64,000 nucleotides of DNA from Patescibacteria group bacterium (GTDB taxonomy: Bacteria; Patescibacteriota; Minisyncoccia; Minisyncoccales; Staskawiczbacteraceae). Both the position numbers and the translations under genes were made by a program. Location: the NCBI GenBank assembly GCA_038065715.1, contig JBBTQL010000004.1:35693-99692 (forward strand), in the 5' to 3' direction. The notes beneath the pieces are model-generated. The model did no database searches. It saw only the letters and a program-made list of their open reading frames with translations, and was not told the origin of the DNA. This document shows, piece by piece, positions 1 through 58,945 of the stretch; positions within the stretch are counted from its first letter, which is position 1, and each line of letters begins with the position of its first letter.

Positions 1-1
1 A

Positions 2-6578: not shown

Positions 6579-6581
6579 AAA

Positions 6582-7913
6582 CTAACCAGCTGGCTGCTCT
6601 TCGTCTTCCTCGACAACCCTCAAAACTTCTTCTAATGTTGTATCTCCTAAAACAACATCAATTAAACCCGACTGGTACATTGTGACCATCCCCTTTTTGA
6701 TGGCTAATTCCCTAATTGATGAAACTGGAGGATTAGTTAAAATAAATTTTTCCATTTGCGAGTCTACTAAAAATACTTCAAATAATCCCTGCCTTCCTTT
6801 ATATCCTGTAAAGTTGCAAGCCTCGCACCCTTTTTCTTTTGTTTTTGCAATTTGTATTTTATTTAAATCAGGAAGGATAATATCGTTGGGCAGATTTTTT
6901 AACCCTTTTTTTATTTCAGATAATTCGCTTGCAGTCGGCTTTGCAAGGGTTGAGCATTTTTTGCATACTTTTCTTACCAATCTTTGGGCTACTGTCATTT
7001 TTAATCCTGATGCGATTGATGACGGTTCTGTGCCTAGGTCCACAAGCCTTGGAATGGTGCCAGCAGCGTCATTAGTATGTAAAGTTGATAATACCAAGTG
7101 GCCAGTTAAAGCCGCTTGCAGGGCTATTTTAGCGGTTTCAAGGTCTCTAATTTCACCAACCAATATAACATCGGGGTCTTGCCTTACTATTGACCTTAGC
7201 CCGTCTGAAAAGTCATATCCTTTTTCTGGAGCCACTTGTGTTTGAGAAACGCCTTTTAAGTGATATTCAATCGGGTCCTCAATTGTGATAATTTTAATTT
7301 CTGGATTTTGAATCTTCATTAAAAAAGCGTAAAGAGTAGTTGTTTTTCCAGAACCCGTAGGACCTGTAACAATTATCATTCCATTGGGCTTTTCAATTTC
7401 TTTTTGAAAAATTTTATATAAATCTTTTCTTAATCCTAAAGAATCTAACCCAATTAAATTTTTTGGATTTAAAATTCTCATTACAATTGATTCGCCATAT
7501 TCAGCCGGCAGGCTGGAAGTTCTTATTTCTATTAATGAGTCCTCAATTTCTATGGTAAACCTTCCGTCTTGCGGCTTATCTGTGATATTTAATTTAAGCC
7601 TAGAGAGAAGCTTTAATCTGGAAATTAAGCTGTGATATATTTTTTCGTCAAAAAAAACAACGTCCTGTAAGACGCCGTCTAACCTTATTCTTAACCTTGA
7701 GTTATTTTCCTGCGGCTCTATATGTATATCAGAAGTATCAAGCGCTATGGCTCCAAACAAAATAACATCTAAAAGATTTGTGGTATTTTGCGTTATGTAT
7801 TCTTCTATCTTTGCTTTAAAATTGGAAATACTTTTAACATCTTTTTTTACTTCAACTATAACATCTTTTGAAATAGCTACGGTTCCTAATAATTTTTTCT
7901 TTGTTTCATTCAT
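6582..7913 (-). CDS. Type II/IV secretion / type IV pilus assembly ATPase (GspE/PilB family)
   Basis: 443 aa. Walker A GPTGSGKTTT, Asp box LVGEIRD, His box TGHLVLSTLHTN, and a tetracysteine motif CKKC...CEAC. Confidence 0.9.
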   Translation of the reverse strand: MNETKKKLLGTVAISKDVIVEVKKDVKSISNFKAKIEEYITQNTTNLLDVILFGAIALDTSDIHIEPQENNSRLRIRLDGVLQDVVFFDEKIYHSLISRLKLLSRLKLNITDKPQDGRFTIEIEDSLIEIRTSSLPAEYGESIVMRILNPKNLIGLDSLGLRKDLYKIFQKEIEKPNGMIIVTGPTGSGKTTTLYAFLMKIQNPEIKIITIEDPIEYHLKGVSQTQVAPEKGYDFSDGLRSIVRQDPDVILVGEIRDLETAKIALQAALTGHLVLSTLHTNDAAGTIPRLVDLGTEPSSIASGLKMTVAQRLVRKVCKKCSTLAKPTASELSEIKKGLKNLPNDIILPDLNKIQIAKTKEKGCEACNFTGYKGRQGLFEVFLVDSQMEKFILTNPPVSSIRELAIKKGMVTMYQSGLIDVVLGDTTLEEVLRVVEEDEEQPAG

Positions 7914-8748
7914 TTTTATTAAAAATATTATTTTTTATTTCTTTTAAGTCGGCTCCCGTTTTCATTAAAAGCCCGGCAGTTTCAAAAATTTCCTGCGTTG
8001 TTTTTGAATTTCCAAAATTTTCTGTGTAAATTGCCAGTCCTGCCAAAAAGCAGTTGGCAGCCTGTTTTTTTACCCCGTTAGAAAGCCCATCTTTTGAGGG
8101 TTCCTTATTGGATGGGTCGTATGGCCCCGGTTGCTCAAGCTTTCTATCGGGGTTTACAAGATTTAACGCCATCTCTGACAAAGAATAATCTCTTATTATG
8201 TTTATTCTACCAAAGTTTTGGTTTTTTGTCCCGACTTCGTCGAGGATGCTCGATGGCGAAGCCATCGGCACACTTTCACTATCTATATTTAAAATAAGAG
8301 AATCCAGTAAAAACCCATAAGAGTTAAGCTTGCCAGCCAATTCAGTTTTAAAATCTTTTATTCCTAAAGTTATTGTAAGGTCTGGTTTTGTTTCTGAAAA
8401 ATAAAATAAGAGGTTTTCTTTTTTTATATTTCCCCTGTCAATCATTAAATGAATTTTTAATCCTTCTTCATTTTTTTCGTAGTAAACCTGCGAGATTTCA
8501 GCTGTTTTTTGAGGAATTGAAATCACAAAGTTTTTTGGATATGAAATATGGCCTAAGCTAGGCAATAAAAATCGAAATTTTTCTGGAAATTCTTCTATTA
8601 TTAAGTTTACATTTTTATTTAATTCTTTTAAAGTATAAAAAAGAGCCAAAGCAACTGGAATGCTTTCGCCATTTGGGTTATCATTTGGAATAATGCAGAT
8701 ATTTTTTGCTTCAGAAATTAATTGCTTTGCTTCTTGCGGTATTTCCAT
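7906..8748 (-). CDS. Hypothetical protein with a degenerate DHH/NrnA-like N-terminal region
   Basis: 280 aa. ICIIPNDNPNGESIPVALALFYTLKELNKNV resembles the DHH motif region, but the catalytic His/Asp are replaced. Carries GC-rich insert A1. Confidence 0.45.
   Translation of the reverse strand: MEIPQEAKQLISEAKNICIIPNDNPNGESIPVALALFYTLKELNKNVNLIIEEFPEKFRFLLPSLGHISYPKNFVISIPQKTAEISQVYYEKNEEGLKIHLMIDRGNIKKENLLFYFSETKPDLTITLGIKDFKTELAGKLNSYGFLLDSLILNIDSESVPMASPSSILDEVGTKNQNFGRINIIRDYSLSEMALNLVNPDRKLEQPGPYDPSNKEPSKDGLSNGVKKQAANCFLAGLAIYTENFGNSKTTQEIFETAGLLMKTGADLKEIKNNIFNKNE
8228..8271. repeat. GC-rich palindromic insert family A, copy A1 (in frame in CDS 7906-8748)
   Basis: GTCCCGACTTCGTCGAGGATGCTCGATGGCGAAGCCATCGGCAC encodes ..PMASPSSILDEVG.. 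on the minus strand. Related to copies at 21287, 41150 and 61452. Confidence 0.75.
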
Positions 8749-8805
8749 AAAATTTAAGATTTAATATACCCTATTCGATTTTAAAAAATAAGTCAATTGT
8801 GGATT

Positions 8806-9323: not shown

Positions 9324-9329
9324 CTAAAT

Positions 9330-9578: not shown

Positions 9579-9632
9579 GAATAATTTGACATTATTATTA
9601 GTATAATAGTATTATAAATAATAATTAAATAT

Positions 9633-10998: not shown

Positions 10999-11013
10999 TT
11001 ACATAAATAAATT

Positions 11014-11610: not shown

Positions 11611-11619
11611 TAAAAAAAG

Positions 11620-12527: not shown

Positions 12528-12546
12528 AGAGACCCGATCTCGCACA
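12528..12546. repeat. REP-like sequence upstream of RAYT (degenerate, inverted orientation)
   Basis: AGAGACCCGATCTCGCACA is the near reverse complement of the downstream REP core GTGTGAGATCGGGTCTC. Confidence 0.6.
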
Positions 12547-12565
12547 ACTCACACAAAAAAATACT

Positions 12566-13303
12566 ATGCCATATAGAAAAGAACAATTTGTGAACGGAGA
12601 TATTTATCACATTACCAATAGAGCAATTGATGATAACTTAATTTTTAAAGATAAAAACGATTATTATCGCGGTATTTTTTCTATTTATGAATTTAATAAT
12701 GAAAAACCTGTGAATATATCTAATAGAAGACGAGATCGGATTGTCGAAAAAGAAAGAGAAAAACCGTGTGAGACCGGGTCTCATGCGAAGCTTTCTTCGG
12801 ATGAAAGGGAAAAGTTGGTGGATATTTTTGCATTTTGTTTTATGCCAAATCATATTCATCTTTTGGTAAAACAGCTGGAAGATAATGGAATAACTAATTT
12901 TATGAAAAAAGTCGGCATAGGATATGGAGGTTATTTTAATAGAAAATATCAGCGCAAAGGTTATGTTTTCCAAAACAGATTTAAATCAGTTCACATAGAG
13001 AATGACAATCAATTTATGGTGGTTGTGCCGTACATATTTACAAATCCCACCGCATTAATAGAGCCAGGGTGGAAAGGACAGGGGATCAAAAATCACTCCA
13101 CCAAAGAGGTGCTTAAATTTTTAGAAGAATACAAGTGGTCAAGTTATCAAGATTGTATTGGAATTAAGAATTTTGATTCTGTCACACAAAGAGATTTTTT
13201 ATTAGAAATGATGGCAGGCAAACAAGGTTGTAAAGACGCAGTTGAAAATTGGATAAAAAATAAAGTCGAAATTGGACAGCACGCAAATATTTTATTAGAT
13301 TAA
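12566..13303 (+). CDS. REP-associated tyrosine transposase (RAYT, IS200/IS605 Y1 HUH family)
   Basis: 245 aa. YHITNRA, the HUH motif in FMPNHIHLLV, and a C-terminal Tyr-containing region. Flanked by REP-like hairpins. Confidence 0.8.
   Translation: MPYRKEQFVNGDIYHITNRAIDDNLIFKDKNDYYRGIFSIYEFNNEKPVNISNRRRDRIVEKEREKPCETGSHAKLSSDEREKLVDIFAFCFMPNHIHLLVKQLEDNGITNFMKKVGIGYGGYFNRKYQRKGYVFQNRFKSVHIENDNQFMVVVPYIFTNPTALIEPGWKGQGIKNHSTKEVLKFLEEYKWSSYQDCIGIKNFDSVTQRDFLLEMMAGKQGCKDAVENWIKNKVEIGQHANILLD
12766..12786. repeat. REP-like hairpin inside the RAYT coding sequence (in frame)
   Basis: AAAACCGTGTGAGACCGGGTCTCATGC closely matches AAAACCGTGTGAGATCGGGTCTCACAC at 13303-13330. Encodes ..KPCETGSHA.. Confidence 0.65.
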
Positions 13304-13306
13304 AAA

Positions 13307-13332
13307 CCGTGTGAGATCGGGTCTCACACAGC
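13307..13332. repeat. REP hairpin downstream of RAYT
   Basis: GTGTGAGA-TCGGG-TCTCACAC, a perfect 8-bp stem, immediately after the RAYT stop. Confidence 0.75.
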
Positions 13333-21181: not shown

Positions 21182-21787
21182 ATGATAGCATTTTTATCGG
21201 GTAAAATTTTATTAAAAAAGGACAAGTTTATCATTCTTGAAGCAGCTGGCGTTGGCTACAAAGTTTTTTTAAATCAGCAAACCCTATCCCGACTCGATCG
21301 AGGATCCTCGACGACTTCGTCGTCGGGATTAAAATTATCAGAAATAGGGCAGGATGTAAAGCTATTTTGCTTCCAAAATATAAAAGAAGATGCTTCGGAT
21401 TTATATGGGTTTTTAAGTTATGACGAGCTTGATTTTTTTGAGGTGCTAAACGATATTCATGGCGTAGGGCCAAAAGCTGCTTTGGAAATTTCTGTGTTAG
21501 GCCCCTTAGAAAAAATTAAGGACAGAATTTTAGCGCAGGACGAAAAAATATTTGAAGGAATTCCCGGAATTGGTTCAAAAAGGGCGTCGTCAATTATTTT
21601 AGAATTGACCGGAAAAATAATGGCGAAGTCCGCCTTTGCTAAAGCTTCGCCAGACGAAGCAGAAACCGCTTTAACCCAGCTTGGTTTTTCAAAACAGCAA
21701 GCAAAGGATGCCCTGGCTCGCGTGCCTGTTGCTGTTAAAAATTCTGAAGACAGAATAAAATTAGCGCTTAAAAATTTAGGAAAATAA
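21182..21787 (+). CDS. ruvA: Holliday junction DNA helicase RuvA
   Basis: MIAFLSGKI start and HhH motifs GVGPKAALEI and IPGIGSKRASSIILEL. ATG 21182 preferred over the upstream alternative start. Confidence 0.85.
   Translation: MIAFLSGKILLKKDKFIILEAAGVGYKVFLNQQTLSRLDRGSSTTSSSGLKLSEIGQDVKLFCFQNIKEDASDLYGFLSYDELDFFEVLNDIHGVGPKAALEISVLGPLEKIKDRILAQDEKIFEGIPGIGSKRASSIILELTGKIMAKSAFAKASPDEAETALTQLGFSKQQAKDALARVPVAVKNSEDRIKLALKNLGK
21287..21329. repeat. GC-rich palindromic insert family A, copy A2 (in frame in ruvA)
   Basis: ATCCCGACTCGATCGAGGATCCTCGACGACTTCGTCGTCGGGAT has perfect 8-bp termini. Encodes LSRLDRGSSTTSSSGL. Confidence 0.75.
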
Positions 21788-22788: not shown

Positions 22789-24039
22789 ATGAGGATAAAA
22801 GAAGCAGTTAAAAAAATATTAGGCAGAAATTTGTTGGGTTTTTATCATTATGGCATGGCTTTTTTGGGAGCTGTGATTTTTGGTTTTCCATCTAAAAATT
22901 TAACTGTTATAGGGGTTACAGGCACCAGCGGTAAATCAACTACTTCTGATTTTATCACAAGAATTTTAGAAGAACCCTTCGACGGGGCCCAGGGCAGGTC
23001 TGGCAATAAGGTGGCTTCAATTTCAACAATAAGATTTAAAATTGCAGAAAAAGAATGGGAAAATAAATATAAAATGACAATGCCCGGCCGTTTTGTTATT
23101 CAAAAGTTTTTAAGGCAGGCAAAAAAAGCAGGATGCAAATTTGTGGTTTTAGAAGTTACTTCGCAAGGCATTGAACAATATCGCCATAAATTTATAAATT
23201 TTGATACAGCTGTTTTTACTAATTTGTCGCCAGAGCATATTGAAAGCCATGGCAGTTTTGAAAATTACAGAAACGCAAAACTAAAACTATTTCGAGCAAC
23301 AAAAAACATCCATATTATAAATACTGATGACGCAAATTCAAAATATTTTTGGAATATTCCGGCAAAACAAAAAATTGGATTTTCAGCCAAAGATGCGCAA
23401 AACGCTAATTTAAAATTAAATTTAATTGGAGACTTTAATATTTTAAACGCCTTAGCGGCAATTTCTGCGGCAAAGGCATATGGCATTGATTTTAGCATTT
23501 GTAAAAGGGCGCTGGAAAAGGCCAAAGGAATTTCTGGCAGAATGGAAGTGATTCAAAAAGAGCCATTCAAAGTTATTGTTGACTATGCTCATACTCCAGA
23601 ACAACTCGAAAGTGTCTATAAGGCACTTTCTCAAAACCCAAAACCTCAAACTCCAAACCCCAAACTTATTTGTGTGCTTGGAAGTTGCGGCGGGGGAAGG
23701 GATAAATGGAAAAGGACTGTTTTAGGAGAAATTGCAAATAAATATTGCGACAAAATATTTATAACCAATGAAGATCCATATGATGAAAACCCCAACCAGA
23801 TTTTATCTGAAATAAAATCTGGAATTATCAATTCTCAATTTCCAATTTCCAATTTATATGAAATTTTAGACCGTAAAGAGGCAATTAAAACTGCAATAAA
23901 ATTAGCAAAATCAGATGATATTGTTATAATCACTGGCAAGGGTTCAGAATCCTGGATGTGCATAGCAAACGGTAAAAAAATCCCCTGGGACGACAGGCAA
24001 ATCGCTAAAGATGCGTTGGGGCTCCAAACCTTGACATAG
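22789..24039 (+). CDS. murE: Mur ligase, MurE-like UDP-MurNAc-tripeptide synthetase
   Basis: GVTGTSGKSTT P-loop, DYAHTP and GSCGGGRDKWKR. Carries in-frame repeat inserts at 22975-23004, 23630-23667 and 23835-23856. Confidence 0.8.
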   Translation: MRIKEAVKKILGRNLLGFYHYGMAFLGAVIFGFPSKNLTVIGVTGTSGKSTTSDFITRILEEPFDGAQGRSGNKVASISTIRFKIAEKEWENKYKMTMPGRFVIQKFLRQAKKAGCKFVVLEVTSQGIEQYRHKFINFDTAVFTNLSPEHIESHGSFENYRNAKLKLFRATKNIHIINTDDANSKYFWNIPAKQKIGFSAKDAQNANLKLNLIGDFNILNALAAISAAKAYGIDFSICKRALEKAKGISGRMEVIQKEPFKVIVDYAHTPEQLESVYKALSQNPKPQTPNPKLICVLGSCGGGRDKWKRTVLGEIANKYCDKIFITNEDPYDENPNQILSEIKSGIINSQFPISNLYEILDRKEAIKTAIKLAKSDDIVIITGKGSESWMCIANGKKIPWDDRQIAKDALGLQTLT

Positions 24040-24218: not shown

Positions 24219-24878
24219 ATGGCTGTGCAAGTCATTGGCGATCTATATGTGGAGTTGGATGGGAAGTTGGCGGAGATTAAGCGGCAAATGAGGCAGCAGG
24301 GAGGCTATCCGTTTGACCCGGAGAAATTAAACAAGTTTCTCCAACTAGCTGTCGAGGGCAGGTTCAACGACAACCGGTGCTGGTGCGAGAAGGAAGGAGT
24401 GATCTACTTTGAGGTCACCTCTGACGGCACGACTGGACCCCAATGGATTGAGCGTCTGGAGAAGAAGGGTATCCAGCTCTCCAAGTGGGCCAAGGACGTC
24501 CTGCTGTCTCCGGACTTCAAGCCGACCAACGGCGTGACCACCGAGATCGCTGTCCTCAAGGGCGCGCTTTTTATGGACAATGATCGCATCACGTCTAAGA
24601 TCCGCGCTGAGGCCGACAAGCGCAAGCTCGTCAAGCCCGAAGCCGAACTCGGTTGCCTTATCCGCGACACGTTCACGGACGAGGAAATCGAAGCCATGGG
24701 TCTTGTGTGGATCGTGGCGTTCCACGAGCCCATCAAGGACTCTGACGGCGATCCGACGTTGCTCGGTGCGCGTCGCCTTGGCGATGGCCGTTGGCTGCGC
24801 GCGTGCTGCGGCCTGCCCGACCGCAGGTGGCTTCGCGACCGTGGCTTTGCCTTCGCCGTCTCGCAAGTATCTTCGTAA
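24219..24878 (+). CDS. DGR-1 variable (target) protein with C-terminal VR, no signal peptide
   Basis: 219 aa; RBS AAAGGAG before the ATG. Sampled 60-nt lines are about 60-65% GC versus about 30% for the genome. The C-terminal 42 codons are the VR. Confidence 0.85.
   Translation: MAVQVIGDLYVELDGKLAEIKRQMRQQGGYPFDPEKLNKFLQLAVEGRFNDNRCWCEKEGVIYFEVTSDGTTGPQWIERLEKKGIQLSKWAKDVLLSPDFKPTNGVTTEIAVLKGALFMDNDRITSKIRAEADKRKLVKPEAELGCLIRDTFTDEEIEAMGLVWIVAFHEPIKDSDGDPTLLGARRLGDGRWLRACCGLPDRRWLRDRGFAFAVSQVSS
24741..24866 (+). repeat. Variable repeat VR-1
   Basis: Gap-free 126-nt alignment with TR-1. There are 21 substitutions opposite TR adenines and one C/G difference; the last 25 nt are identical. Confidence 0.9.
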
Positions 24879-24974
24879 GTCCTTTGGGCTTGAGCCTTTG
24901 CTCTAGCCCTTGGATCCTCTGCCCTTTGCATTTCCTCACGGACTTGCACTGGGCAGATTTTTTTTGCTAAAATA

Positions 24975-25334
24975 TAAATGGTAATAGGTGAATCTTGCGG
25001 GAGATCAAGGTTTCCCGCGGCCGAATCCAGTATTCGTATGCTGAGAGCGTTTGCGATTAAGGTTGCAAACGGAGGGCATACGAATTACTTTCAAAAAAGA
25101 AGATACTTGGCGTGGGAAACTAGGGCATTACGATGCCGAATTCGATACAGCCCTGTGATCGTAAAACTACTTCAAGGGGCAGTGGCATAGATGGTTTCTT
25201 GCGTATTTCTGACGGCGATCCGAACTTGCTCAGTGCGAATCGCAATGACGATGGCCATTGGCTGAACGCGTACTACGACAAGCCCGACAACAGGTGGAAT
25301 CGCGACAATGGCTTTGCCTTCGCCGTCTCGCAAC
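24975..25334 (+). ncRNA. Putative DGR-1 template RNA (structured 5' region plus TR)
   Basis: Candidate promoter TTGCAC-18-TAAAAT (TG-extended) near 24940-24972. Extended hairpin at 25029-25089 and blocks conserved with locus 2 up to 14 nt before TR. Transcript ends are not determined. Confidence 0.5.
25209..25334 (+). repeat. Template repeat TR-1 (noncoding)
   Basis: Copy of the VR with A at 21 variable positions, mostly in AAC/AAT codons of the VR frame. No RBS or start codon. Confidence 0.9.
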
Positions 25335-25339
25335 TCTCT

Positions 25340-25699
25340 TCATTTCTCTCCTTGCTTAGGAGAGTTTTGTTTAATAATTTGTCCCGACCAACCACCGAGC
25401 ATTTTGCCAATTTCATCTAGTTTCAATGATAGAGCAATATATTTTTTGTTATCCAATGATTTTGTTTCCCAAAGAATCATTAAAAATATTTTTAACGTAT
25501 CGACCTTTCTAATTGCTAAACGTACATAGGACAATTTTTCTGATTGCCCAAGAAAACTTGCAGTCACTATTGCCTCTATTGCTTCAACAAAAAGTTTATC
25601 AATTTTTTCACCAAGAGAATATTTATGTATTTTTGGTATAATTAAATAGTGTTGGTACCAAAAAAGATAAGCTTCTTTCAACTTTTGCAAAACAGGCAA
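25340..25699 (-). CDS. avd: DGR accessory variability determinant (Avd-like four-helix-bundle protein)
   Basis: About 119 aa from a TTG start (LPVLQKLKEAYLFWYQ...). Homologous to the 122-aa ORF at 63274-63642. Helical pattern with C-terminal IGKMLGGW. The track ORF extends further upstream (25834), probably spuriously. Confidence 0.8.
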   Translation of the reverse strand: MPVLQKLKEAYLFWYQHYLIIPKIHKYSLGEKIDKLFVEAIEAIVTASFLGQSEKLSYVRLAIRKVDTLKIFLMILWETKSLDNKKYIALSLKLDEIGKMLGGWSGQIIKQNSPKQGEK

Positions 25700-25705
25700 C
25701 AGTCT

Positions 25706-25715
25706 GGGGGGGGGG
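25706..25715. repeat. Homopolymeric G10 tract in the avd/RT divergent gap
   Basis: G10 lies 6 nt from the avd TTG start and 24 nt before the RT ATG. The paralogous position in DGR-2 has G7. Confidence 0.9.
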
Positions 25716-25739
25716 ATTAAAAGCTGAGTTATTTTGATT

Positions 25740-32697: not shown

Positions 32698-34527
32698 ATG
32701 AAGAACAAGGAAATTGCTAAAATATTTTATGAAATAGCGAAATTTTTAGAAATAGAAAGAGTGGCTTTTAAGCCCTATGCTTATGAAAGGGCTGGTAATT
32801 CCTTAGAAGCATTGAAAGAAGATGTGGGCGATATTTATAGAAAAGGCGGGGCAAAGGCTTTGCAGGAAATTTCAGGAGTCGGCAAAAATATTGCAGGGCA
32901 TATTGAAGAGTATTTAAAAAATGGAAAGGTAAAAATCTACGAACAGCTTAAAAAGAAATTGCCCCTTAAAATAGATGAGTTGATTAAAGTAGAAGGTTTG
33001 GGCCCAAGAAAAATAAAAATTCTTTATCAAAAATTAGGCGTTAAAAATTTGAAAGATTTGGAAAAGATGGCTAAGGCGCATAAAATAGCCCCGCTTTTCG
33101 GTTTTGGAGAAAAAACAGAAAATAATATTTTAGAAGGCATTGAATTTTTAAAAAGAAGCAAAGGCCGGTCTCGTTTGGGAGACATAATGCCAATAGTAGA
33201 AGAAATTTTTGAAAATTTAAAAAATTTAAAAGAGGTTGAAAAAATCAGTTTAGCTGGCTCTTTAAGAAGAAGAAAAGAAACTATTGGAGATGTTGATATT
33301 TTAGTGGTTTCCCGCCCAGCAGGGCGAGGCTCGCCTGGTGAGGCGGCTAATAAAGTAATGGATTTTTTTGTTTCTCAAGAGGGCGTAGAAAAAGTATGGG
33401 GCAAAGGAGGAACAAAAGCATCGGTTCATATGAAATATGGATTTGATATGGATTTAAGAATTGTTCCCGAAAAAAGTTATGGCTCTGCTTTGCAATACTT
33501 TACCGGGTCAAAAGACCACAATATTGTTACAAGAAAAATTGCCATAGAAAAAGGCCTAAAATTAAGCGAGTACGGAGTTTTTAAAGGAAAAAAACAGATT
33601 GCCGGTAAAACAGAAGAAGATGTTTATAAAGCAATTGGTTTGCCATTTATAGAACCAGAATTAAGAGAAAACGAAGGCGAAATTGAGGCGGCTCTTCGAC
33701 AAGCTCAGGGTAAACTTCCGGGATTGCCAAAAATAGTTGAGTTAAAAGATATAAGGGGGGACTTACATTGCCATTCAAAACCCGATGGAGTCGCCCATTT
33801 GAATGTCGGAGAAAAATCGATTGAAGAAATGGCTAAAGTGGCAATGGCTATGGGTTACGAATATATTGGAATTTCTGATCATACAAAATTTTTAAAAATT
33901 GATGATGGTTTAGACGAGAAACAATTATTAAAACAAAATGAAGCAATAAAAAAAATAAATACCCGCCTCCGCCAACCTGCGCTTCGCCAAAGGCTTCGGC
34001 AAGGCGAGGGCTTCGGCGGGCAAGAAAAATTTCGCATACTTCACGGATGCGAGGCAAATATTCTACCGGACGGTTCAATAGATATTAAAGACGAAGTTTT
34101 GGCTCAATTAGATTATGTTATAGCTGGCGTTCACAATGCTTTAAAACAAGAAAAACTAAAAATGACAGAAAGGTTAATAAGAGCAATGAAAAATCCGAAT
34201 GTTGATATTATTTCGCATCCAACGGGCAGATTAATAGGCAGCAGAGACGAATATCAAATTGATTTTGATAAAATTTTAGAAATAGCAAAAGAAACCGGAA
34301 CAATTTTGGAAATTAATTCGTCTCCTTACAGATTAGATTTAAAAGACTTATATGTCAGAAGAGCAAAAAATGAAGGCGTGAAAATGATTATAAATACCGA
34401 CAGCCACCAAAAAGAGCAATTAAATCTTATGGAATATGGAGTTTCGCAAGCCAGAAGAGGTTGGGCGGAGAGAGAGGATATTATAAACACAAATTCATTA
34501 GACGGATTATTAAAATATTTTAAATGA
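32698..34527 (+). CDS. polX: Family X DNA polymerase with C-terminal PHP domain
   Basis: HhH motifs, GSLRRRKETIGDVDILV and the PHP motif GDLHCHS. Three GC-rich in-frame inserts, at 33311-33346, 33686-33723 and 33962-34020. Confidence 0.9.
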   Translation: MKNKEIAKIFYEIAKFLEIERVAFKPYAYERAGNSLEALKEDVGDIYRKGGAKALQEISGVGKNIAGHIEEYLKNGKVKIYEQLKKKLPLKIDELIKVEGLGPRKIKILYQKLGVKNLKDLEKMAKAHKIAPLFGFGEKTENNILEGIEFLKRSKGRSRLGDIMPIVEEIFENLKNLKEVEKISLAGSLRRRKETIGDVDILVVSRPAGRGSPGEAANKVMDFFVSQEGVEKVWGKGGTKASVHMKYGFDMDLRIVPEKSYGSALQYFTGSKDHNIVTRKIAIEKGLKLSEYGVFKGKKQIAGKTEEDVYKAIGLPFIEPELRENEGEIEAALRQAQGKLPGLPKIVELKDIRGDLHCHSKPDGVAHLNVGEKSIEEMAKVAMAMGYEYIGISDHTKFLKIDDGLDEKQLLKQNEAIKKINTRLRQPALRQRLRQGEGFGGQEKFRILHGCEANILPDGSIDIKDEVLAQLDYVIAGVHNALKQEKLKMTERLIRAMKNPNVDIISHPTGRLIGSRDEYQIDFDKILEIAKETGTILEINSSPYRLDLKDLYVRRAKNEGVKMIINTDSHQKEQLNLMEYGVSQARRGWAEREDIINTNSLDGLLKYFK

Positions 34528-36424: not shown

Positions 36425-36916
36425 ATGCCAAAAGAAAAGTCAGCTGGAGTTATAATTTTTAGACGGGAACCCTTCGACCCGGCTCAGGGTAAAAAATCTG
36501 ATATTTTTTACCTGCTTTTGCATTATGCTCCGTCTGAGCCGGGAAAACATGGACACTGGGGGTTTGCAAAAGGGCATATTGAAAAAGGCGAAACAGACGA
36601 AGAAACAGCTAAAAGAGAAGTCGCTGAAGAAACTGGCATTAAAGACCTAAAAATAATTTCTGGATTTAAAGAATTAGAAAAATATTTTTTTAGGCAGGTT
36701 TACGGGCTAAAGGGCGAAGCAAGAAAAAAAGCGCCGTGGGTTTTCAAATCAGTTGTATTTTTTTTAGCTGAAACAAAAATTAAAGATGTTAAAATTTCAG
36801 AAGAACACGCTGGTTTTTTGTGGCTGGCTTACGGAGATGCTGTTAGAAAAATAAGTTTTAAAAACTCAAAAGAGCTATTAAAAAAAGCAAATGAATTTTT
36901 AGAAGAAAACAAGTAA
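36425..36916 (+). CDS. Nudix hydrolase
   Basis: Nudix box GHIEKGETDEETAKREVAEETGI. In-frame insert at 36464-36493 (EPFDPAQGK). Confidence 0.9.
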   Translation: MPKEKSAGVIIFRREPFDPAQGKKSDIFYLLLHYAPSEPGKHGHWGFAKGHIEKGETDEETAKREVAEETGIKDLKIISGFKELEKYFFRQVYGLKGEARKKAPWVFKSVVFFLAETKIKDVKISEEHAGFLWLAYGDAVRKISFKNSKELLKKANEFLEENK

Positions 36917-38037: not shown

Positions 38038-38054
38038 TTGTATTTATTATTTTA

Positions 38055-38403
38055 GTGGAAGCGCCGGGGTCGAACCCGGGTCCAGAAATTTTTTAAAAAT
38101 AAATCTACAAATTTATCTTGCTTTGTTGTTTGGATATTAAATAAGAAGCAAGAAAAATGTTTAATATCCTAATTCTCGTAAATCTCGACAGTTCCCCGAG
38201 AAATAAAACTGCCTATCCTGAAAATATAACACCCTCGGTCCATTTATCAGGAGTCAATGGCGAGGATGCAGCATTAAGCTAAAGCTAGTGCTGGTTGCCT
38301 ATTAAATAAATTAGCAATTATGTTTTTTCTATAAGTTTAACCAGGTTATAGAAAACTGGATTTGCATATTTTTAATGAAACATCTGTCAAAACTTACGCT
38401 CCC
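38055..38403 (-). ncRNA. ssrA: tmRNA (SsrA)
   Basis: 5' GGGAGCG pairs with 3' CGCTTCC-A, including a G3:U pair. T-arm GGACCCGGGTTCGACCCCGG. Tag frame GCT AAT ... GCT TAA predicts ANLFNRQPALALA. Adjacent to smpB. Confidence 0.85.
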
Positions 38404-39152: not shown

Positions 39153-39830
39153 ATGAATAAGGAAACTATAATAATTTCACTGGGTGGGTCGCTTGTAGCG
39201 CCGGGGGAAATTGATATTGGATTTTTGAAGAATTTTAAGCACGCTTTGTTAAAATACTTAAAGTTAAAGCGTTTTTTTATTATTGTAGGCGGAGGCAAAA
39301 TTTGCAGAAATTACCAAAAAACATTATCAGAATTTGGCGCAAAAGATGTTGATAAGGACTGGATAGGAATAAATGTTTCAAAATTAAACGCAGAAGTTGT
39401 AAAACAGGTTTTTTCTAAGTTTTCTTTTTCTGAAATTATTACAAACCCTACAAAAGAAATAACAACTAAAAAAGATATTGTTGTAGCGTCTGGCTGGAAA
39501 CCTGGCCGCTCTACTGATTACTGCTCCGTTGTGATGGCAAAAAAAGCCGGTATTAAGACGATTATAAACTTAACAAATATTGATTATGTTTACGATAAAG
39601 ACCCAAAACAGTTTCCTGGAGCTAAAGCCATAAAAGAAATAAGCTGGAAAGATTTTAGAAAAATTATTGGTGATAAATGGAGCCCTGGATTGTCAGCTCC
39701 CTTTGACCCTGAGGCTTCAAAAATTGCAGAAAAATTAAAATTAAAGGTGGCAATGATTAACGGCAAAAATTTAGAACGCCTTGAAGATTTTTTAAACAGT
39801 AAGCCATTTATTGGAACTATTATTCAATGA
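39153..39830 (+). CDS. pyrH: Uridylate kinase (archaeal-type amino acid kinase fold)
   Basis: 225 aa with IISLGGSLV at the N-terminus and an amino-acid-kinase family pattern. Confidence 0.75.
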   Translation: MNKETIIISLGGSLVAPGEIDIGFLKNFKHALLKYLKLKRFFIIVGGGKICRNYQKTLSEFGAKDVDKDWIGINVSKLNAEVVKQVFSKFSFSEIITNPTKEITTKKDIVVASGWKPGRSTDYCSVVMAKKAGIKTIINLTNIDYVYDKDPKQFPGAKAIKEISWKDFRKIIGDKWSPGLSAPFDPEASKIAEKLKLKVAMINGKNLERLEDFLNSKPFIGTIIQ

Positions 39831-41482
39831 TAAAAGAAGAAATAAAAAAAATAGTGGAAAACTCAATTAAAAACCTGCAAAAACAGGGCGCATTTTTAAA
39901 ATTAAAAATGCCAGAAATTTTAATTGAGCGGCCTAAAGAAAAAATACGCGGTGACTATTCAACCAACATTGCCTTTGTAATTGGAAAAGATGTTTTGAAA
40001 AATCCATTTGAAACGGCATTGCTTTTGAAAACAGAAATTGTCTCGCTTTGCGAGATCTCGCGCAGCGAGAAAAAACAAAAATCTGTAATAGAAAAAGTTG
40101 AGGTAGTGGGAGGGTTTATTAATTTTTTTGTTGCTGACGATTATTTTAAAAATCAGCTGCAAATTATTTTAAAACAAAAAAACAAATTTGGAGATTTAAA
40201 ACTTGGTAAAAGTCAAAAAGTAAACATAGAATTTATTTCTGCAAATCCAACAGGGCCGTTAACTTTAGGAAACGGCAGAGGAGGATTTTGTGGCGATGTT
40301 TTGGCTAATGTTTTAGAAAAAGCAGGATATAAAGTTGAAAGAGAATATTATATTAACAATACCGGAGCTCAAATTAAAAAACTTGGGCATTCTGTAATTG
40401 GAGATGCAGAAGCTGTTTACAAAGGAAAATATATTATTGATTTAAGAAACAAAGTTAAGGGAGATGACCCCGAGAAAGTTGGAGAAAAATCGGCAAAAAT
40501 TATTTTAGAAAAAATGATAAAGCCGTCTGTAAAAAAAATGGGAATTAAATTTGACACATGGTTTTCAGAAAAAACTCTCTATAAAAATAAAGAAGTAGAT
40601 AAAACAATACAAGAATTGGCTAAAAAAGGGTTCACCTATGAAAGCGAAGACGCTGTGTGGTTTAAATCTAAAGAATTGGGCGATGACAAAGACAGGGTTT
40701 TGGTGAGAGCCGACGGAATTAAAACATATTTTGCTTCAGATATTGCTTATTTTAAAAATAAATTTAAAAGAGGGTTTGGTAAACTTATTATGTTTTTGGG
40801 AGCCGACCACTATGGATATGTTCCGAGGCTAAAAGCTGCCTCGCTTGCTTTTGGTTTTAAAAAAGACAGTATTGATGCTATTGTTATGCAGTTGGTGCGG
40901 CTTTATGAAAAAGGCAAAGAAGTAAGAATGGCAAAAAGGACTGGTATTTATGTAACAATAGATGAGTTAATTGGCGAGGTTAGTTTGGATGTTGCCAGAT
41001 TTTTCTTTTTAATGATAAGCCCTAATACCCACATGAATTTTAATTTGGATTTAGCAAAAGAAAAATCAGAGAAAAATCCGGTTTTTAAAGTGCAATATGC
41101 GCATGCCCGAATTTGCTCAATTTTCCGAAAATTTGGAAATTTCAAATTTTCCCGATTTCATCGAGGATCCTCAATGGCAAAGCCATCGGGACAAATTTCA
41201 AATTTAAAATTATTAAATGAGCCGAGCGAGTTAGGGTTAATTAGAGAATTAATTAAACTTCCAGAAATTATTGAAGAGATAGCTAAAGATTATCAAGTTC
41301 AAAGACTACCGCAATACGCAATGGATTTAACTGATGCATTCCATAGATTTTATGAAAACTGTAAAGTCCTGAGCGAAGTCGAAGGATTGCGTGATGCCCG
41401 CTTGTCTCTTGTTATGGCAACAAAAATTGTTTTAAAAAATACATTAGACTTAATGGGAATATCTGCTCCTGAAAAAATGTGA
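39827..41482 (+). CDS. argS: Arginine--tRNA ligase
   Basis: 551 aa with SANPTGPLTLGNGRG and VQYAHARICS; ends in M. Carries inserts at 40049-40078, 41137-41205 and 41368-41392. Confidence 0.95.
   Translation: MIKEEIKKIVENSIKNLQKQGAFLKLKMPEILIERPKEKIRGDYSTNIAFVIGKDVLKNPFETALLLKTEIVSLCEISRSEKKQKSVIEKVEVVGGFINFFVADDYFKNQLQIILKQKNKFGDLKLGKSQKVNIEFISANPTGPLTLGNGRGGFCGDVLANVLEKAGYKVEREYYINNTGAQIKKLGHSVIGDAEAVYKGKYIIDLRNKVKGDDPEKVGEKSAKIILEKMIKPSVKKMGIKFDTWFSEKTLYKNKEVDKTIQELAKKGFTYESEDAVWFKSKELGDDKDRVLVRADGIKTYFASDIAYFKNKFKRGFGKLIMFLGADHYGYVPRLKAASLAFGFKKDSIDAIVMQLVRLYEKGKEVRMAKRTGIYVTIDELIGEVSLDVARFFFLMISPNTHMNFNLDLAKEKSEKNPVFKVQYAHARICSIFRKFGNFKFSRFHRGSSMAKPSGQISNLKLLNEPSELGLIRELIKLPEIIEEIAKDYQVQRLPQYAMDLTDAFHRFYENCKVLSEVEGLRDARLSLVMATKIVLKNTLDLMGISAPEKM
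41137..41205 (+). repeat. Composite insert in argS: family A copy A3 nested within an AAATTTC heptamer repeat
   Basis: AAATTTCAAATTT (41137-41149), then TCCCGATTTCATCGAGGATCCTCAATGGCAAAGCCATCGGGAC, then AAATTTCAAATTT (41193-41205). Encodes GNFKFSRFHRGSSMAKPSGQISNLK. Confidence 0.8.
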
Positions 41483-53335: not shown

Positions 53336-54607
53336 ATGTATAAAAAAACAACATTAAAAAACGGATTAAGGGTGATAACAATTCCAATGGAAAACGCCAA
53401 TAGTGTTACTGTTTTAATCTTGGTTGGCACAGGTTCAAAATATGAAACAAAAGACATAAACGGCATTTCTCATTTTTTAGAACATATGTTTTTTAAAGGC
53501 ACTGAAAAAAGGCCAACCACTTTAAAAATTGCCGAAACCTTAGATATGGTTGGCGGCGAATATAATGCTTTCACATCAAAAGAAATTACTGGATTTTGGG
53601 CTAAAGTAGATAAAAAACACACAGATGTTGCTTTAGACTGGATATCTGATATGTTTTTAAATTCTAAATTTGACGAAAAAGAAATAGAAAGAGAAAAAGG
53701 AGTAATAATAGAAGAGGTAAATATGTATTTAGACACCCCAATGGCCTATGTTGGAGAATTATGGGAAGATTTGCTTTACAAAGACCAGCCGGCCGGCTGG
53801 CGGGTTATAGGCGAAAAAGAAAACATACTGAACTTTAACAGAAAAAAAATTATAAATTATTATAAAAATCATTATTCGCCAAAAAATACAATAATTTGCG
53901 TGTCGGGAGGCATTGAGCAAGATAAAATTGCATCAAAAATACAGAGTTATTTTTCCCCCTTCGGGGGATCCGCCGTAGGCGGAAAAGTTAAAGTAAAAGA
54001 ATACCAAAAAGAGCCTGAAATATTGTTTCACCATAAAAAAACAGACCAGACCCATTTTTGTTTAGGGGTAAGGGCATACGATATGTTTCATCAGCAAAAA
54101 TATGCTTTGGTTTTACTGGCTATTATTTTGGGGGGAAACATGAGCTCGCGTCTTTTTATTAAAGTAAGGGAAAGAAGCGGTTTGGCTTATTCTATTCACA
54201 CATCTGTTGACGCTTCTACTGACACCGGATATTTGGTCACGCAAGCTGGAATTGACCATAAAAATTTAGAAAAATCAGTAAAGCTTATTTTACAGGAATA
54301 TAAAAACATTAAAGATACAAAAATTACAGAAAGAGAATTGCAAAAGGCAAAAGATTATTTAAAGGGAACTATGTCTTTGTCTTTAGATTCGTCAGACAGC
54401 CAAGCTTCTTTTTATGCCGTGCAAGAATTGCTTGAAAAGGAAGTTTTATCTCCTGAAGAAAAGTTTAAAAAAATTGACACAGTTTCTGTAAATGATATAA
54501 AAAAGGTAGCAGAGGATATATTTTTACCAGAAAAGTTGAATTTGGCAGTTATCGGCCCGTTTGAAGAAAATAAAAAAGAAGAGTTTAAAAAAATACTAAA
54601 AATATGA
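53336..54607 (+). CDS. M16-family zinc peptidase
   Basis: HFLEHMFFKGT (HxxEH). In-frame double tetraloop-hairpin insert at 53955-53983. Confidence 0.9.
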   Translation: MYKKTTLKNGLRVITIPMENANSVTVLILVGTGSKYETKDINGISHFLEHMFFKGTEKRPTTLKIAETLDMVGGEYNAFTSKEITGFWAKVDKKHTDVALDWISDMFLNSKFDEKEIEREKGVIIEEVNMYLDTPMAYVGELWEDLLYKDQPAGWRVIGEKENILNFNRKKIINYYKNHYSPKNTIICVSGGIEQDKIASKIQSYFSPFGGSAVGGKVKVKEYQKEPEILFHHKKTDQTHFCLGVRAYDMFHQQKYALVLLAIILGGNMSSRLFIKVRERSGLAYSIHTSVDASTDTGYLVTQAGIDHKNLEKSVKLILQEYKNIKDTKITERELQKAKDYLKGTMSLSLDSSDSQASFYAVQELLEKEVLSPEEKFKKIDTVSVNDIKKVAEDIFLPEKLNLAVIGPFEENKKEEFKKILKI

Positions 54608-57698: not shown

Positions 57699-57953
57699 AT
57701 GCTGGTTTTGTCCCGCAAGAAGAACGAGAGCATTGTCATCAACGACGATATCACGATTGTCGTGATAGAAATCCGCGGCGACAAGGTTCGCCTCGGCATT
57801 GATGCGCCAAAAGAGGTGCCTGTCCACCGGCGCGAAGTGTTTGACGCGATACGTCGCGATGATGCTTCAGCAGCTAGTACGGGGATTAAAACCTCCGAGA
57901 CCCCCGATAATCTGGAGGATCCCGCCGAGGAAAGCCCTCAAGACCCAGGTTAA
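57699..57953 (+). CDS. csrA: Carbon storage regulator CsrA, GC-rich island
   Basis: MLVLSRKKNESIVINDDITIVVIEIRGDKVRLGIDAPKEVPVHRREVF, plus an acidic, Pro-rich tail. RBS AAAGGAGAG. Confidence 0.85.
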   Translation: MLVLSRKKNESIVINDDITIVVIEIRGDKVRLGIDAPKEVPVHRREVFDAIRRDDASAASTGIKTSETPDNLEDPAEESPQDPG

Positions 57954-58036: not shown

Positions 58037-58945
58037 ATGATTATTGATACACATTCTCATTTAAGTTTTAAGGCATATGATAGCGATAGAGATGAGGTTA
58101 TAAAACGCACTCAAAAAGAGGGTGTTGTTTGTATTGATGTTGGCACAAAATATGAAACAAGCAAAAGGGCAGTTGAATTAGCAGAAAAATATGAAAATAT
58201 ATATGCAGCCGTTGGAATGCATCCAATTCATATAAAAACAGATTTATTAAAATTAAAATTAGACAAAGAAGAGGGCGCATTTGCTCCGCTTGGCGAAGAG
58301 TTTGATAAAGCGAAATACAGAGAACTTGTTATAAATAGTGAAAAAAAAGCCGAAGGTCCTAACTCGAGAAGGACCGAAGGCTCTGAGGAGCTAAAGCGAC
58401 GAAGAGTGGTAGCGGTTGGTGAAATTGGATTAGACTATTATTATAAGCCAAAAGGAACAGCTAAAAAAGAACAATTTAAAGAAAAACAAAAACAAGTTTT
58501 TTTACAGCAATTAGAATTGGCAGAAGAATTAAATTTACCGGTAATTGTTCATTGCAGAATGGCGCATCAGGATGTTATAGAAATTTTGAAAAATAAAAAT
58601 GTTGAAGGAGTTATTCATTGTTTCACAGGAAATTGGGAAGAAGCGCAAAAATATATAGATTTAGGATTTTATATTGGCTTAAACGGAATTATTTTTTCTG
58701 CCCTAGGCAGACCCGCCTCGGGCGGGAAATTACCGCTAGATGATGTTGTTACGCAGTGTCCCCTAGATAAAATTTTAACAGAAACAGATTGCCCATATTT
58801 AACACCCTTGCAGGAAAACGGAAAAAGAAACGAACCGATTTTTGTAAAACACGTTATTCAAAAAATCGCTGACTTAAAAAGTGTTAGTTTCGCCGAAGTT
58901 GCCGACAAAACTACCCAAAACGCCAAAAAATTATTTAATATTTAA
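58037..58945 (+). CDS. tatD: TatD-family metal-dependent hydrolase
   Basis: MIIDTHSHL; 302 aa. Inflated by GC-rich inserts at about 58343-58400 and 58712-58726. Confidence 0.9.
   Translation: MIIDTHSHLSFKAYDSDRDEVIKRTQKEGVVCIDVGTKYETSKRAVELAEKYENIYAAVGMHPIHIKTDLLKLKLDKEEGAFAPLGEEFDKAKYRELVINSEKKAEGPNSRRTEGSEELKRRRVVAVGEIGLDYYYKPKGTAKKEQFKEKQKQVFLQQLELAEELNLPVIVHCRMAHQDVIEILKNKNVEGVIHCFTGNWEEAQKYIDLGFYIGLNGIIFSALGRPASGGKLPLDDVVTQCPLDKILTETDCPYLTPLQENGKRNEPIFVKHVIQKIADLKSVSFAEVADKTTQNAKKLFNI

What the first reader, a model, noticed from the sequence alone, without database searches (positions are those of the whole stretch)
41137..41205. Family of GC-rich palindromic elements inserted in frame into essential genes (family A)
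Seen in sequence:
- Four related 42-44-nt elements have inverted termini TCCCGA(C/T)...(A/G)TCGGGA and a central CGAGGA(T/C)(C/G)C core.
- They lie inside CDSs without breaking the frame.
- A1 is at 8228-8271 (hypothetical protein, minus strand, PMASPSSILDEVG).
- A2 is at 21287-21329 (ruvA, LSRLDRGSSTTSSSGL).
- A3 is at 41150-41191 (argS, SRFHRGSSMAKPSGQ).
- A4 is at 61452-61493 (leuS, PTVSPSRTRDEVGAE).
- Both orientations occur relative to the host gene, giving two peptide versions.
- A3 is flanked by a 13-nt direct repeat, AAATTTCAAATTT (41137-41149 and 41193-41205). This could be a target-site duplication, or insertion into a pre-existing heptamer repeat.

Established knowledge: in-frame palindromic insertions in housekeeping genes are known from Rickettsia (RPEs).

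Inference: this is an analogous, possibly undescribed, mobile hairpin element family in this lineage. Only frame-preserving, stop-free copies survive in genes.
Basis: partly seen in the sequence, partly recalled or inferred. Interest (0 to 1): 0.75.

Follow-up and report, generated by a model that had tools for sequence, protein, structure and literature searches.

The report
Tiny hairpin elements inside essential genes
A 36-45 bp GC-rich double-hairpin DNA element has been inserted, almost always in multiples of three bases, into protein-coding genes (argS, leuS, ruvA and others) of a small-genome groundwater bacterium and many relatives; it resembles the palindromic elements of Rickettsia but is smaller, and I found no description of it.

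Summary
Four related 42-nt elements (TCCCGA...TCGGGA) lie in frame in argS, ruvA, leuS and an unnamed gene of a Patescibacteria (CPR) MAG. A fifth lies just outside the window.

- **Insertions:** each is absent from the closest orthologues. Three filled/empty DNA pairs show exactly 42 nt added with no target-site duplication.
- **Flanking repeat:** the 13-nt repeat around A3 is a heptamer repeat that already exists in the empty site, so it is not a duplication.
- **Distribution:** about 100 further copies occur in groundwater and sediment metagenomes.
- **Length:** copies are 36, 42 or 45 nt; 91 of 97 are multiples of three.
- **Structure:** covariation supports two bulged hairpins rather than one long palindrome. 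Wobble pairs are almost absent, which points to a DNA-level structure.
- **Flanks:** G at -1 in 66% of copies, after a T-rich run. Copies also nest at the centre of other copies.
- **Candidate enzyme:** the window encodes a RAYT-like Y1/HUH transposase (12566-13303), but different palindromes flank it.

Best reading: a REPIN/RPE-like non-autonomous hairpin element, tolerated in surface loops and probably moved by an HUH enzyme. The enzyme link is inferred, not shown. I found no prior description of it.

The parts
41150..41191 (+). Family-A copy A3 (42 nt), in frame in argS; peptide SRFHRGSSMAKPSG
   Evidence: Absent from the closest orthologue at protein level and DNA level. Lies in a loop with AlphaFold pLDDT below 50 (residues 438-457).
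41137..41205 (+). A3 with its flanking 13-nt direct repeat AAATTTCAAATTT (41137-41149 and 41193-41205). This is heptamer-repeat target context, not a target-site duplication.
   Evidence: The empty site in L001 already reads CCAAATTGCAAATTTCAAATTT.
8229..8270 (+). Family-A copy A1 (42 nt, TGC/GCA foot variant), in frame in the minus-strand gene 7906-8748; peptide PMASPSSILDEVG
   Evidence: Insertion relative to homologues. Present in an independent assembly.
21287..21328 (+). Family-A copy A2 (42 nt), in frame in ruvA; peptide SRLDRGSSTTSSSG
   Evidence: Empty site in L221 and filled sites in L222, L227 and L228. Loop with pLDDT below 50 at residues 39-49.
61452..61493 (-). Family-A copy A4 (42 nt, reverse orientation), in frame in leuS; peptide IPTVSPSRTRDEVG
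   Evidence: Unique among 120 LeuRS orthologues. Empty site in L220.
39827..41482 (+). Host gene argS (arginyl-tRNA synthetase)
   Evidence: Pfam Arg_tRNA_synt_N, tRNA-synt_1d and DALR_1. 100% match to a Patescibacteria MAG protein.
21182..21787 (+). Host gene ruvA (201 aa from the annotated start)
   Evidence: Pfam RuvA_N, HHH_5 and RuvA_C. P0121 is 100% identical. Start checked.
59468..62014 (+). Host gene leuS (leucyl-tRNA synthetase)
   Evidence: Pfam; P0241 and P0512.
7906..8748 (-). Host gene of A1; conserved protein with no Pfam match
12566..13303 (+). RAYT-like Y1/HUH transposase gene; candidate enzyme acting in trans. The link to family A is inferred, not shown.
   Evidence: Pfam Y1_Tnp 35.0 bits (gathering score 23). 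NCBIfam REP-associated tyrosine transposase 41.9 bits, below its cut-off of 80. HUH motif PNHIHLL and tyrosine motif PYIFTNP are present.
12529..12545 (+). Left inverted repeat flanking the RAYT-like gene (GAGACCCGATCTCGCAC)
   Evidence: 94% complementary to 13309-13325. Shares only the CCCGAT core with family A.
13309..13325 (+). Right inverted repeat flanking the RAYT-like gene (GTGTGAGATCGGGTCTC). A third copy lies inside the gene at 12759-12783.

Best explanation
Family A is a non-autonomous mobile DNA element made of two back-to-back bulged hairpins: [TCCCGAY-TTC-RTCGAGGA][TCCTCGA-variable stem-loop-TCGGGA]. It is 36-45 bp long, which makes it an inverted doublet of one hairpin unit, like a REPIN without a spacer.

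**Shown.**
- It enters DNA as an exact unit, without duplicating the target.
- It usually sits after a T-rich run ending in G.
- It sometimes inserts at the centre of another copy.
- Its length is almost always a multiple of three, and it is poor in stop codons.
- Copies in genes lie in poorly conserved stretches of the host proteins; the two modelled (ArgRS, RuvA) are low-confidence loops.

**Inferred.**
- Copies that land in surface loops of genes are read through and translated as 12-15 extra residues, so they persist even in argS and leuS.
- The hairpins are recognised as single-stranded DNA by a Y1/HUH tyrosine transposase of the RAYT / IS200-IS605 kind acting in trans. One such gene lies in the window at 12566-13303.
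- The element itself has no function for the cell.
For: **Insertion, not ancestral sequence.** Three filled/empty DNA pairs show exactly 42 nt (TCCCGA...TCGGGA) added between intact codons, with no target-site duplication.

**Copy number and spread.**
- Five copies lie in about 74 kb of this genome.
- About 100 copies were found elsewhere, in other Patescibacteria and in metagenome contigs of 30-63% GC.
- LeuRS orthologues carry the element at a second site.

**Structure.**
- 98.7% of cells pair in the double-hairpin model.
- Seven pairs show changes on both sides. These include 7-11 (UA 15 : CG 14), 20-41 (CG to GC) and the whole distal stem of hairpin 2.
- No shuffle of 500 reached the observed covariation score.
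- The single-palindrome model breaks in exactly the sequences that vary.
- Only 1 of 544 cells is a G-U pair, as expected for a structure that must form on DNA, on either strand.

**Length and frames.**
- 91 of 97 copies are multiples of three (p = 3e-36).
- On average 0.9 of 6 frames are closed, against 2.9 for random 42-mers.

**Flanks.**
- G at -1 in 63 of 96 copies; T at -2 to -4 in 50-57 of 96.
- Three of four empty sites already carry the G.
- There are 6-8 nested insertions, most at CGAG|GATCC.

**Tolerance.** The insert regions are loops with pLDDT below 50 in otherwise confident models.

**Enzyme of the right kind.**
- Window ORF 12566-13303 matches Y1_Tnp above Pfam's threshold and has HUH and Tyr motifs.
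- It is flanked by inverted palindromes, as RAYT genes are.
- A second RAYT-like gene flanked by palindromes lies on the family-A-bearing contig L186.
Against: - **No direct link between the RAYT-like gene and family A.**
  - Its flanking repeats are a different palindrome sharing only CCCGAT. That palindrome is absent from all other loci.
  - The NCBIfam RAYT score is below the curated cut-off.
  - There is no match among solved structures.
- **No GTAG or CGTC tag** at the element ends.
- **No transposase next to paired copies** in L152 or L181.
- **Weak target motif:** little more than one base plus T-richness.
- **The RuvA site is ambiguous.** The copies are scattered on the tree (10 changes for 10 carriers) and have different distal stems. 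Yet they share an unusual hairpin-1 loop. This could mean recombination of an old allele rather than repeated transposition.
- **Not tested:** translation of the insert, and any presence/absence polymorphism within one population.
Confidence: 0.55

Rival explanations
1. The copies are old insertions that no longer transpose. They spread between lineages by homologous recombination of whole alleles after DNA uptake. Their stems stay complementary through template switching between the arms of the quasi-palindrome during replication, not through selection or an enzyme.
For: - RuvA-site copies in four genomes share a non-canonical hairpin-1 loop (CTCGA, TTAGA, ATTGG, CTTGA) but differ in the hairpin-2 stem by paired changes.
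- Carriers are scattered among non-carriers on the RuvA tree.
- G-U pairs are almost absent, as strand-symmetric copying would give.
- The window encodes a ComEA-like protein with an HHH_3 domain.
Against: - It does not explain about 100 copies at unrelated sites with 89% mean column identity.
- It does not explain nested insertions at one position of other copies.
- It does not explain the unique recent copies in ArgRS and LeuRS.
- It does not explain the shared flank signature.
Confidence: 0.15
2. The element is mobile but moved by another kind of enzyme. Candidates are a DDE transposase, a homing-type nuclease, or reverse transcription by the retroelement reverse transcriptase encoded at 25734-26726.
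For: - A reverse transcriptase gene lies in the window.
- The link to the RAYT-like gene is only circumstantial.
- The central GGATCC/GATC and flanking TCGA sites could be nuclease sites (sequence).
Against: - No target-site duplication is seen, which argues against DDE transposition.
- The reverse transcriptase belongs to a typical diversity-generating retroelement with its own template and variable repeats.
- No GATC duplication is seen at nested sites.
- No transposase of another family turned up in the few window ORFs scanned against Pfam or beside paired copies in L152 and L181. Most window ORFs were not scanned, and the motif search looked only for the HUH/Tyr signature.
Confidence: 0.15
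3. The sequence is a selected functional motif, kept because the cell uses it. Candidates are a binding site for a host protein, a DNA-uptake signal, or an RNA hairpin affecting mRNA stability or translation.
For: - The hairpin feet are conserved across contigs of 30-63% GC.
- About half of the copies could not be placed in a long ORF, and one sits between a terminator-like hairpin and a ribosome-binding site.
- REPs are known to have been co-opted (PMC3337134).
Against: - Copies sit at unrelated positions in unrelated proteins and in both orientations.
- Nearest orthologues function without them.
- The near-absence of G-U pairs argues against selection at the RNA level.
- Uptake signals arise by substitution, not by 42-nt insertions (my knowledge).
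Confidence: 0.1
4. The inserts are assembly or binning artefacts.
For: None found.
Against: - An independent assembly is identical over 12.5 kb, including A1.
- The same insert-bearing proteins come from several sources.
- Copies occur in about 100 contigs from many studies.
Confidence: 0.01

Closest known systems
Rickettsia palindromic elements (RPEs)
   Same: Palindromic repeats in a small, AT-rich genome. They are inserted in frame into housekeeping genes, add a peptide, and the protein is thought to stay functional (PMC10969869).
   Different: - RPEs are reported as about 150 bp in ten families; family A is 36-45 bp.
- RPEs are reported to end in CGTC (PMC3733652); family A ends in TCCCGA/TCGGGA.
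- The lineages differ (Alphaproteobacteria versus Patescibacteria).
- No sequence similarity is claimed or tested beyond the ends.
REP / REPIN elements with RAYT transposases
   Same: - Short, GC-rich imperfect palindromes, paired in inverted orientation.
- Thought to fold in single-stranded DNA.
- Non-autonomous.
- A single Y1/HUH transposase gene flanked by palindromes (PMC3337134; PMC3733652).
- Intragenic REPs have been reported, including in repair genes.
   Different: - No GTAG or CGTC tag.
- The two hairpins abut with no spacer.
- All five copies in this genome are intragenic.
- Lengths come in multiples of three.
- The RAYT-like gene here is flanked by a different palindrome.
IS200/IS605-derived miniature elements (palindrome-associated transposable elements)
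   Same: No target duplication, hairpins at both ends, and a short conserved sequence on the 5' flank. The family's properties are from my knowledge.
   Different: No autonomous parent element with the same ends was found. The hairpins reach the very ends of the element instead of being subterminal. The flank motif is much weaker than TTAC-type targets.
Mobile GC clusters and double-hairpin or repetitive hairpin-forming elements of mitochondrial genomes
   Same: GC-rich hairpins scattered through an AT-rich compact genome, sometimes within coding sequence. Basis: the title and abstract of PMC2800124 and my knowledge.
   Different: Organellar, unrelated sequences, mechanism also unknown. This is an analogy only.

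Membership tests
Rickettsia palindromic elements (RPE) | In-frame insertion of a palindromic repeat into protein-coding genes | tested here: met
Rickettsia palindromic elements (RPE) | Element of about 150 bp (as stated in PMC10969869) encoding a conserved peptide of matching length | tested here: not met
   Copies are 36, 42 or 45 nt; size per PMC10969869.
Rickettsia palindromic elements (RPE) | CGTC tetranucleotide at one end (as stated in PMC3733652) | tested here: not met
   Ends are TCCCGA and TCGGGA. CGTC appears only inside hairpin 1 of the C/G variant.
REP / REPIN | Short imperfect palindrome (about 20-40 nt) | tested here: met
   Each hairpin is 18-27 nt with a one-base bulge; pairing is supported by covariation.
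REP / REPIN | Two units in inverted orientation forming the mobile doublet | tested here: met
   Hairpin 1 is the reverse complement of the hairpin-2 type; they are adjacent with no spacer.
REP / REPIN | GTAG (or CGTC) tag at one end | tested here: not met
   Flank and end composition; consensus.
REP / REPIN | A RAYT gene in the genome | tested here: inconclusive
   Y1_Tnp scores above Pfam's threshold. The NCBIfam RAYT model scores 41.9 bits against a cut-off of 80. HUH and Tyr motifs are present. No match among solved structures.
REP / REPIN | RAYT gene flanked by members of the dispersed repeat family | tested here: not met
   The flanks are a different 17-nt palindrome sharing only CCCGAT.
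REP / REPIN | Predominantly extragenic location | tested here: not met
   All 5 copies in this genome are intragenic. 46 of 97 copies overall lie in long ORFs.
IS200/IS605-type miniature elements | Insertion without target-site duplication | tested here: met
   Three filled/empty pairs.
IS200/IS605-type miniature elements | Insertion 3' of a specific tetra- or pentanucleotide | tested here: inconclusive
   G at -1 in 66% of copies and a T-rich -2 to -4. Three of four empty sites carry the G.
IS200/IS605-type miniature elements | Ends shared with an autonomous element encoding TnpA | not tested
   No whole genome was available. None was seen in about 0.8 Mb of loci.
DDE-type MITEs (for example Correia) | Terminal inverted repeats plus a fixed-length target-site duplication | tested here: not met
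   No duplication. The A3 flanking repeat pre-exists in the empty site.
Any Rfam RNA family | Match at the family's gathering score | tested here: not met
   tmRNA is the only match in the window.

The most novel reading that the evidence does not exclude
Family A would be among the smallest mobile elements I know of (36 bp; my knowledge, not a survey). It would be a bare pair of transposase-recognition hairpins that has adapted to life inside coding sequence, with triplet-quantised length, few stop codons and a preference for two reading phases. It would be spread across Patescibacteria, and apparently beyond, by a domesticated RAYT-like HUH enzyme with a new DNA specificity. In that case the streamlined CPR genomes would be riddled with active selfish DNA inside their essential genes.
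Probability: 0.3. Interest if true: 0.75.

Novelty: new variant of a known kind. Interest (0 to 1): 0.6.

Why it matters
- **Genome biology.** CPR/Patescibacteria genomes are held up as extreme cases of streamlining. Yet this one carries about one family-A copy per 15 kb, plus many other GC-rich hairpin insertions, inside core genes such as aminoacyl-tRNA synthetases.
- **Practical effects.** These inserts create lineage-specific indels in marker proteins used for phylogenomics. They also mark sites in essential enzymes that tolerate insertions.
- **A testable system.** The element is short enough to synthesise, and a candidate HUH enzyme is at hand. Its recognition rules could be worked out in vitro.
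- **Possible tool.** HUH enzymes with new single-stranded-DNA specificities are useful for protein-DNA conjugation (my knowledge).

Tried and rejected
- **Genome-collection scan.** The pattern was too degenerate. Almost all hits were chance matches in GC-rich genomes.
- **Target-site duplication.** Rejected after reading the empty site.
- **Single long palindrome or cruciform as the conserved structure.** Rejected by covariation.
- **Transposase between or beside paired copies.** L152 holds unrelated ORFs and L181 an oxidoreductase-like ORF (judged by eye from the translations, not scanned).
- **Solved-structure relatives of the RAYT-like protein.** None found.
- **The RAYT-flanking palindrome in other loci.** None found.
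- **Near-identical protein variants without the insert.** None; the clusters are too small.
- **ORF 62142-62822 as a second variable repeat of the retroelement.** Not supported by the alignment.
- **Literature.** Searches for the element's sequence, and for intragenic palindromes in CPR, found nothing. The library lacks most subscription journals, so a prior description cannot be excluded.
- **Orientation bias.** Copies lie 34:12 relative to the host gene (p = 0.0016). I did not rely on this because orthologous copies were not collapsed.
Full report
**Organism and setting.** The window is 34% GC. Its ArgRS, RuvA and LeuRS are 100% identical to proteins of a Patescibacteria-group MAG. The nearest named relatives are Candidatus Staskawiczbacteria. 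An independent assembly from Hainich groundwater is identical over window 1-12497. It shows dnaN and dnaA just beyond the left end of the window.

**The observation.**
- The four elements are at the stated coordinates and align without gaps, with 25 invariant columns.
- A profile built from them finds only these four in 64 kb (E 7e-11 to 9e-13; the next unrelated hit has E 0.9).
- TCGAGGA occurs only inside them.
- The hosts are argS, ruvA, leuS and a conserved gene with no Pfam match.
- A fifth copy lies 4 kb beyond the window, in frame in an R3H-domain gene (L225:16510-16553).

**They are insertions.**
- *ArgRS.* The 14 residues are missing from all 30 aligned orthologues, including one at 81-83% identity. 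No other of the 120 hits has the motif.
- *LeuRS.* The insert at this site is unique among 120 orthologues.
- *A1 host.* Homologues align up to residue 159 and resume after the insert.
- *DNA level.* Relatives give empty sites for argS (L001), ruvA (L221) and leuS (L220). In each case exactly 42 nt, TCCCGA...TCGGGA (A4, in canonical orientation, begins CCCCGA), sit between intact codons. Nothing is duplicated.
- *The flanking repeat.* The 13-nt repeat around A3 is not a target duplication. The empty site already reads CCAAATTGCAAATTTCAAATTT.
- *Models.* AlphaFold models put the ArgRS and RuvA inserts in loops with pLDDT below 50, within otherwise confident folds.

**A family far beyond this genome.**
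- An exact 24-nt pattern from the left half finds 98 metagenome stretches, mostly groundwater and sediment, and one viral contig.
- Two genome-collection hits are real: another Patescibacteria MAG and a Liptonbacteria MAG. Neither shares detectable DNA similarity with the window otherwise.
- After removing duplicates there are 97 copies.
- Lengths are 36 (39 copies), 42 (40) or 45 (9). In all, 91 of 97 are multiples of three (p = 3e-36).
- 46 copies lie well inside ORFs of at least 150 codons, many of 300-1200 codons.
- Reading phases 0 and 2 dominate. Phase 1 is rare and is the frame that often carries a stop.
- On average 0.9 of six frames are closed, against 2.9 for random 42-mers of this genome.

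**Anatomy.**
- The element is two hairpins: TCCCGAY-TTC-RTCGAGGA, then TCCTCGA-(variable stem-loop)-TCGGGA. Each has a one-base bulge, and each is the reverse complement of the other's type.
- On 32 distinct 42-nt copies, 98.7% of cells pair.
- Seven pairs change on both sides:
  - position 7-11 (UA 15, CG 14);
  - position 20-41 (CG to GC, the TGC...GCA subfamily to which A1 belongs);
  - the four distal pairs of hairpin 2.
- None of 500 shuffles reached the observed covariation score.
- The alternative of one long palindrome fails in exactly the sequences that vary.
- The search pattern did not constrain the right half and left Y and R independent, so this covariation was not built in.
- Only one G-U cell occurs among 544. 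That fits a structure that must form on DNA, on either strand, better than an RNA structure.

**Sites of insertion.**
- The base before the element is G in 63 of 96 copies. The three bases before that are T in 50-57 of 96. The base after the element is C or T in 84 of 96.
- Three of four empty sites already have the G, so it belongs to the target.
- Six to eight copies sit inside another copy, most at the same point, CGAG|GATCC (L176, L204, L171, L210, L190).
- Fifteen of 92 copies share 8 nt or more between their left and right flanks, against 2.0 expected. These copies lie within AT-rich heptamer tandem repeats.
- The A3 site is one such array, and ArgRS orthologues often carry these repeats in that loop.

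**The RuvA site.**
- Ten of 120 orthologues carry the element at the same codon boundary.
- They are scattered on a tree built without the insert. It takes 10 changes to explain 10 carriers, and every carrier's nearest neighbour is empty.
- Their hairpin-2 stems differ by paired changes, yet they share a non-canonical hairpin-1 loop.
- I cannot decide between three readings: repeated hits on a hot spot, precise losses, or recombination of an old allele.

**A candidate enzyme.**
- A motif search of all ORFs found a Y1/HUH protein in the window itself, at 12566-13303.
- It scores 35 bits on Pfam Y1_Tnp, against a threshold of 23.
- Its best NCBIfam match is REP-associated tyrosine transposase, at 41.9 bits. 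That is below the cut-off of 80.
- HUH (PNHIHLL) and Tyr (PYIFTNP) motifs are present.
- The gene is flanked by 17-nt inverted repeats, with a third copy inside it. This is the layout described for RAYT genes (PMC3337134).
- A second such gene, flanked by GATGGTGCCCATCGT palindromes, lies on the family-A-bearing contig L186.
- The flanking palindromes are not family A. They share only CCCGAT and occur nowhere else in the fetched loci.
- So the genome has the right kind of enzyme, but the link to family A is an inference.

**Context.**
- Family A is one of several kinds of GC-rich hairpin in this genome. The window holds 14 perfect GC-rich hairpins, against 0.67 expected from shuffles.
- Over 21 kb of synteny with a relative, GC-rich hairpin indels occur on both sides.

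**Comparison with known systems.**
- It behaves like RPEs: palindromic, in frame, in housekeeping genes.
- It is built like a REPIN, a doublet of inverted imperfect palindromes.
- It inserts like an IS200/IS605-type element, with no duplication.
- It fails defining tests for each:
  - *RPE:* wrong size and no CGTC end.
  - *REP/REPIN:* no GTAG/CGTC tag, not extragenic, and not the repeat that flanks the RAYT-like gene.
- Rfam has no match.
- Literature searches for the sequence, or for such elements in CPR bacteria, found nothing. The library is incomplete, so this does not prove the family is undescribed.

**Verdict.** This is a real and widespread family of miniature double-hairpin elements, and I found no prior description of it. 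It is a new variant of the REP/RPE kind. Insertion, structure and tolerance in coding loops are shown. Mobilisation by an HUH enzyme, translation of the insert and current activity are inferred.

Noticed in passing
window 24219-26726: Probable diversity-generating retroelement.
- GC-rich target gene at 24219-24878, with a variable repeat at its 3' end (about 24746-24876).
- Template repeat at about 25213-25333.
- Reverse transcriptase at 25734-26726 (Pfam RVT_1, E 1e-24).
- 23 of 28 mismatches between the two repeats fall on adenines of the template.
   Followed up: partly
window 62142-62822: A second GC-rich ORF (about 65-70% GC in a 34% GC genome) with no Pfam match. It does not align convincingly with the retroelement template repeat. 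The same protein is also found on a separate 980-bp contig.
   Followed up: partly
window 12529-13325: RAYT-like Y1 transposase gene flanked by 17-nt inverted palindromes. A third, 25-nt copy of the palindrome is inserted in frame inside the transposase gene itself (12759-12783).
   Followed up: partly
window 9143-9171, 53955-53982, 58698-58726, 29255-29308, 19822-19866, 12120-12156, 33962-34024, 4308-4337, 4505-4524, 28301-28323: Other GC-rich single or double hairpins inside ORFs, unrelated in sequence to family A. Examples are CCGCCCAAGGCGGACCAGCCTCGGGCTGG and the CTGCC...GGCAG types. Several are present or absent relative to the syntenic relative L001, and L001 has its own that the window lacks.
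   Followed up: partly
window 22972-23004, 26892-26916, 36462-36489: Repeats of the type GAACCCTTCGAC...GCTCAGGG (peptide EPFD.AQG). In GC-rich metagenome contigs, family-A copies are nested inside similar sequences (L148, L181).
   Followed up: no
window 41137-41205; loci L122, L129, L134, L168, L177, L188, L193: AT-rich tandem repeats with a 7-nt period (CAAATTT, AATTTGG, TTTAGAG and similar) flank many family-A copies. They also fill the same ArgRS loop in many orthologues, read as 7-residue peptide repeats such as SKIQNPK.
   Followed up: partly
window 40050-40069: A second small GC-rich insert in argS (peptide SLCEISRSEKK), shared with the closest orthologue but absent from most others.
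   Followed up: no
window 8110-8134: The A1 host gene has a further insertion of about 20 residues (NPDRKLEQPGPYDPSNKEPSKDGLSNGV region), containing a GC island, that none of its homologues has.
   Followed up: no
window 57699-57953: A CsrA homologue (Pfam E 5e-26) whose gene is much more GC-rich than its surroundings.
   Followed up: no
window 38053-38403: tmRNA gene on the minus strand (Rfam 112 bits; tag peptide ANLFNRQPALALA).
   Followed up: no
L225 12134-14825 (just left of window position 1): dnaN and dnaA lie immediately beyond the left end of the window, so the window starts near the replication origin. Cumulative GC skew turns at about 8 kb.
   Followed up: no
L219 1749-1792: One family-A copy (TGC/GCA variant) lies on an IMG/VR viral contig of 52% GC. 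It sits between a terminator-like hairpin and the ribosome-binding site of an ORF.
   Followed up: partly
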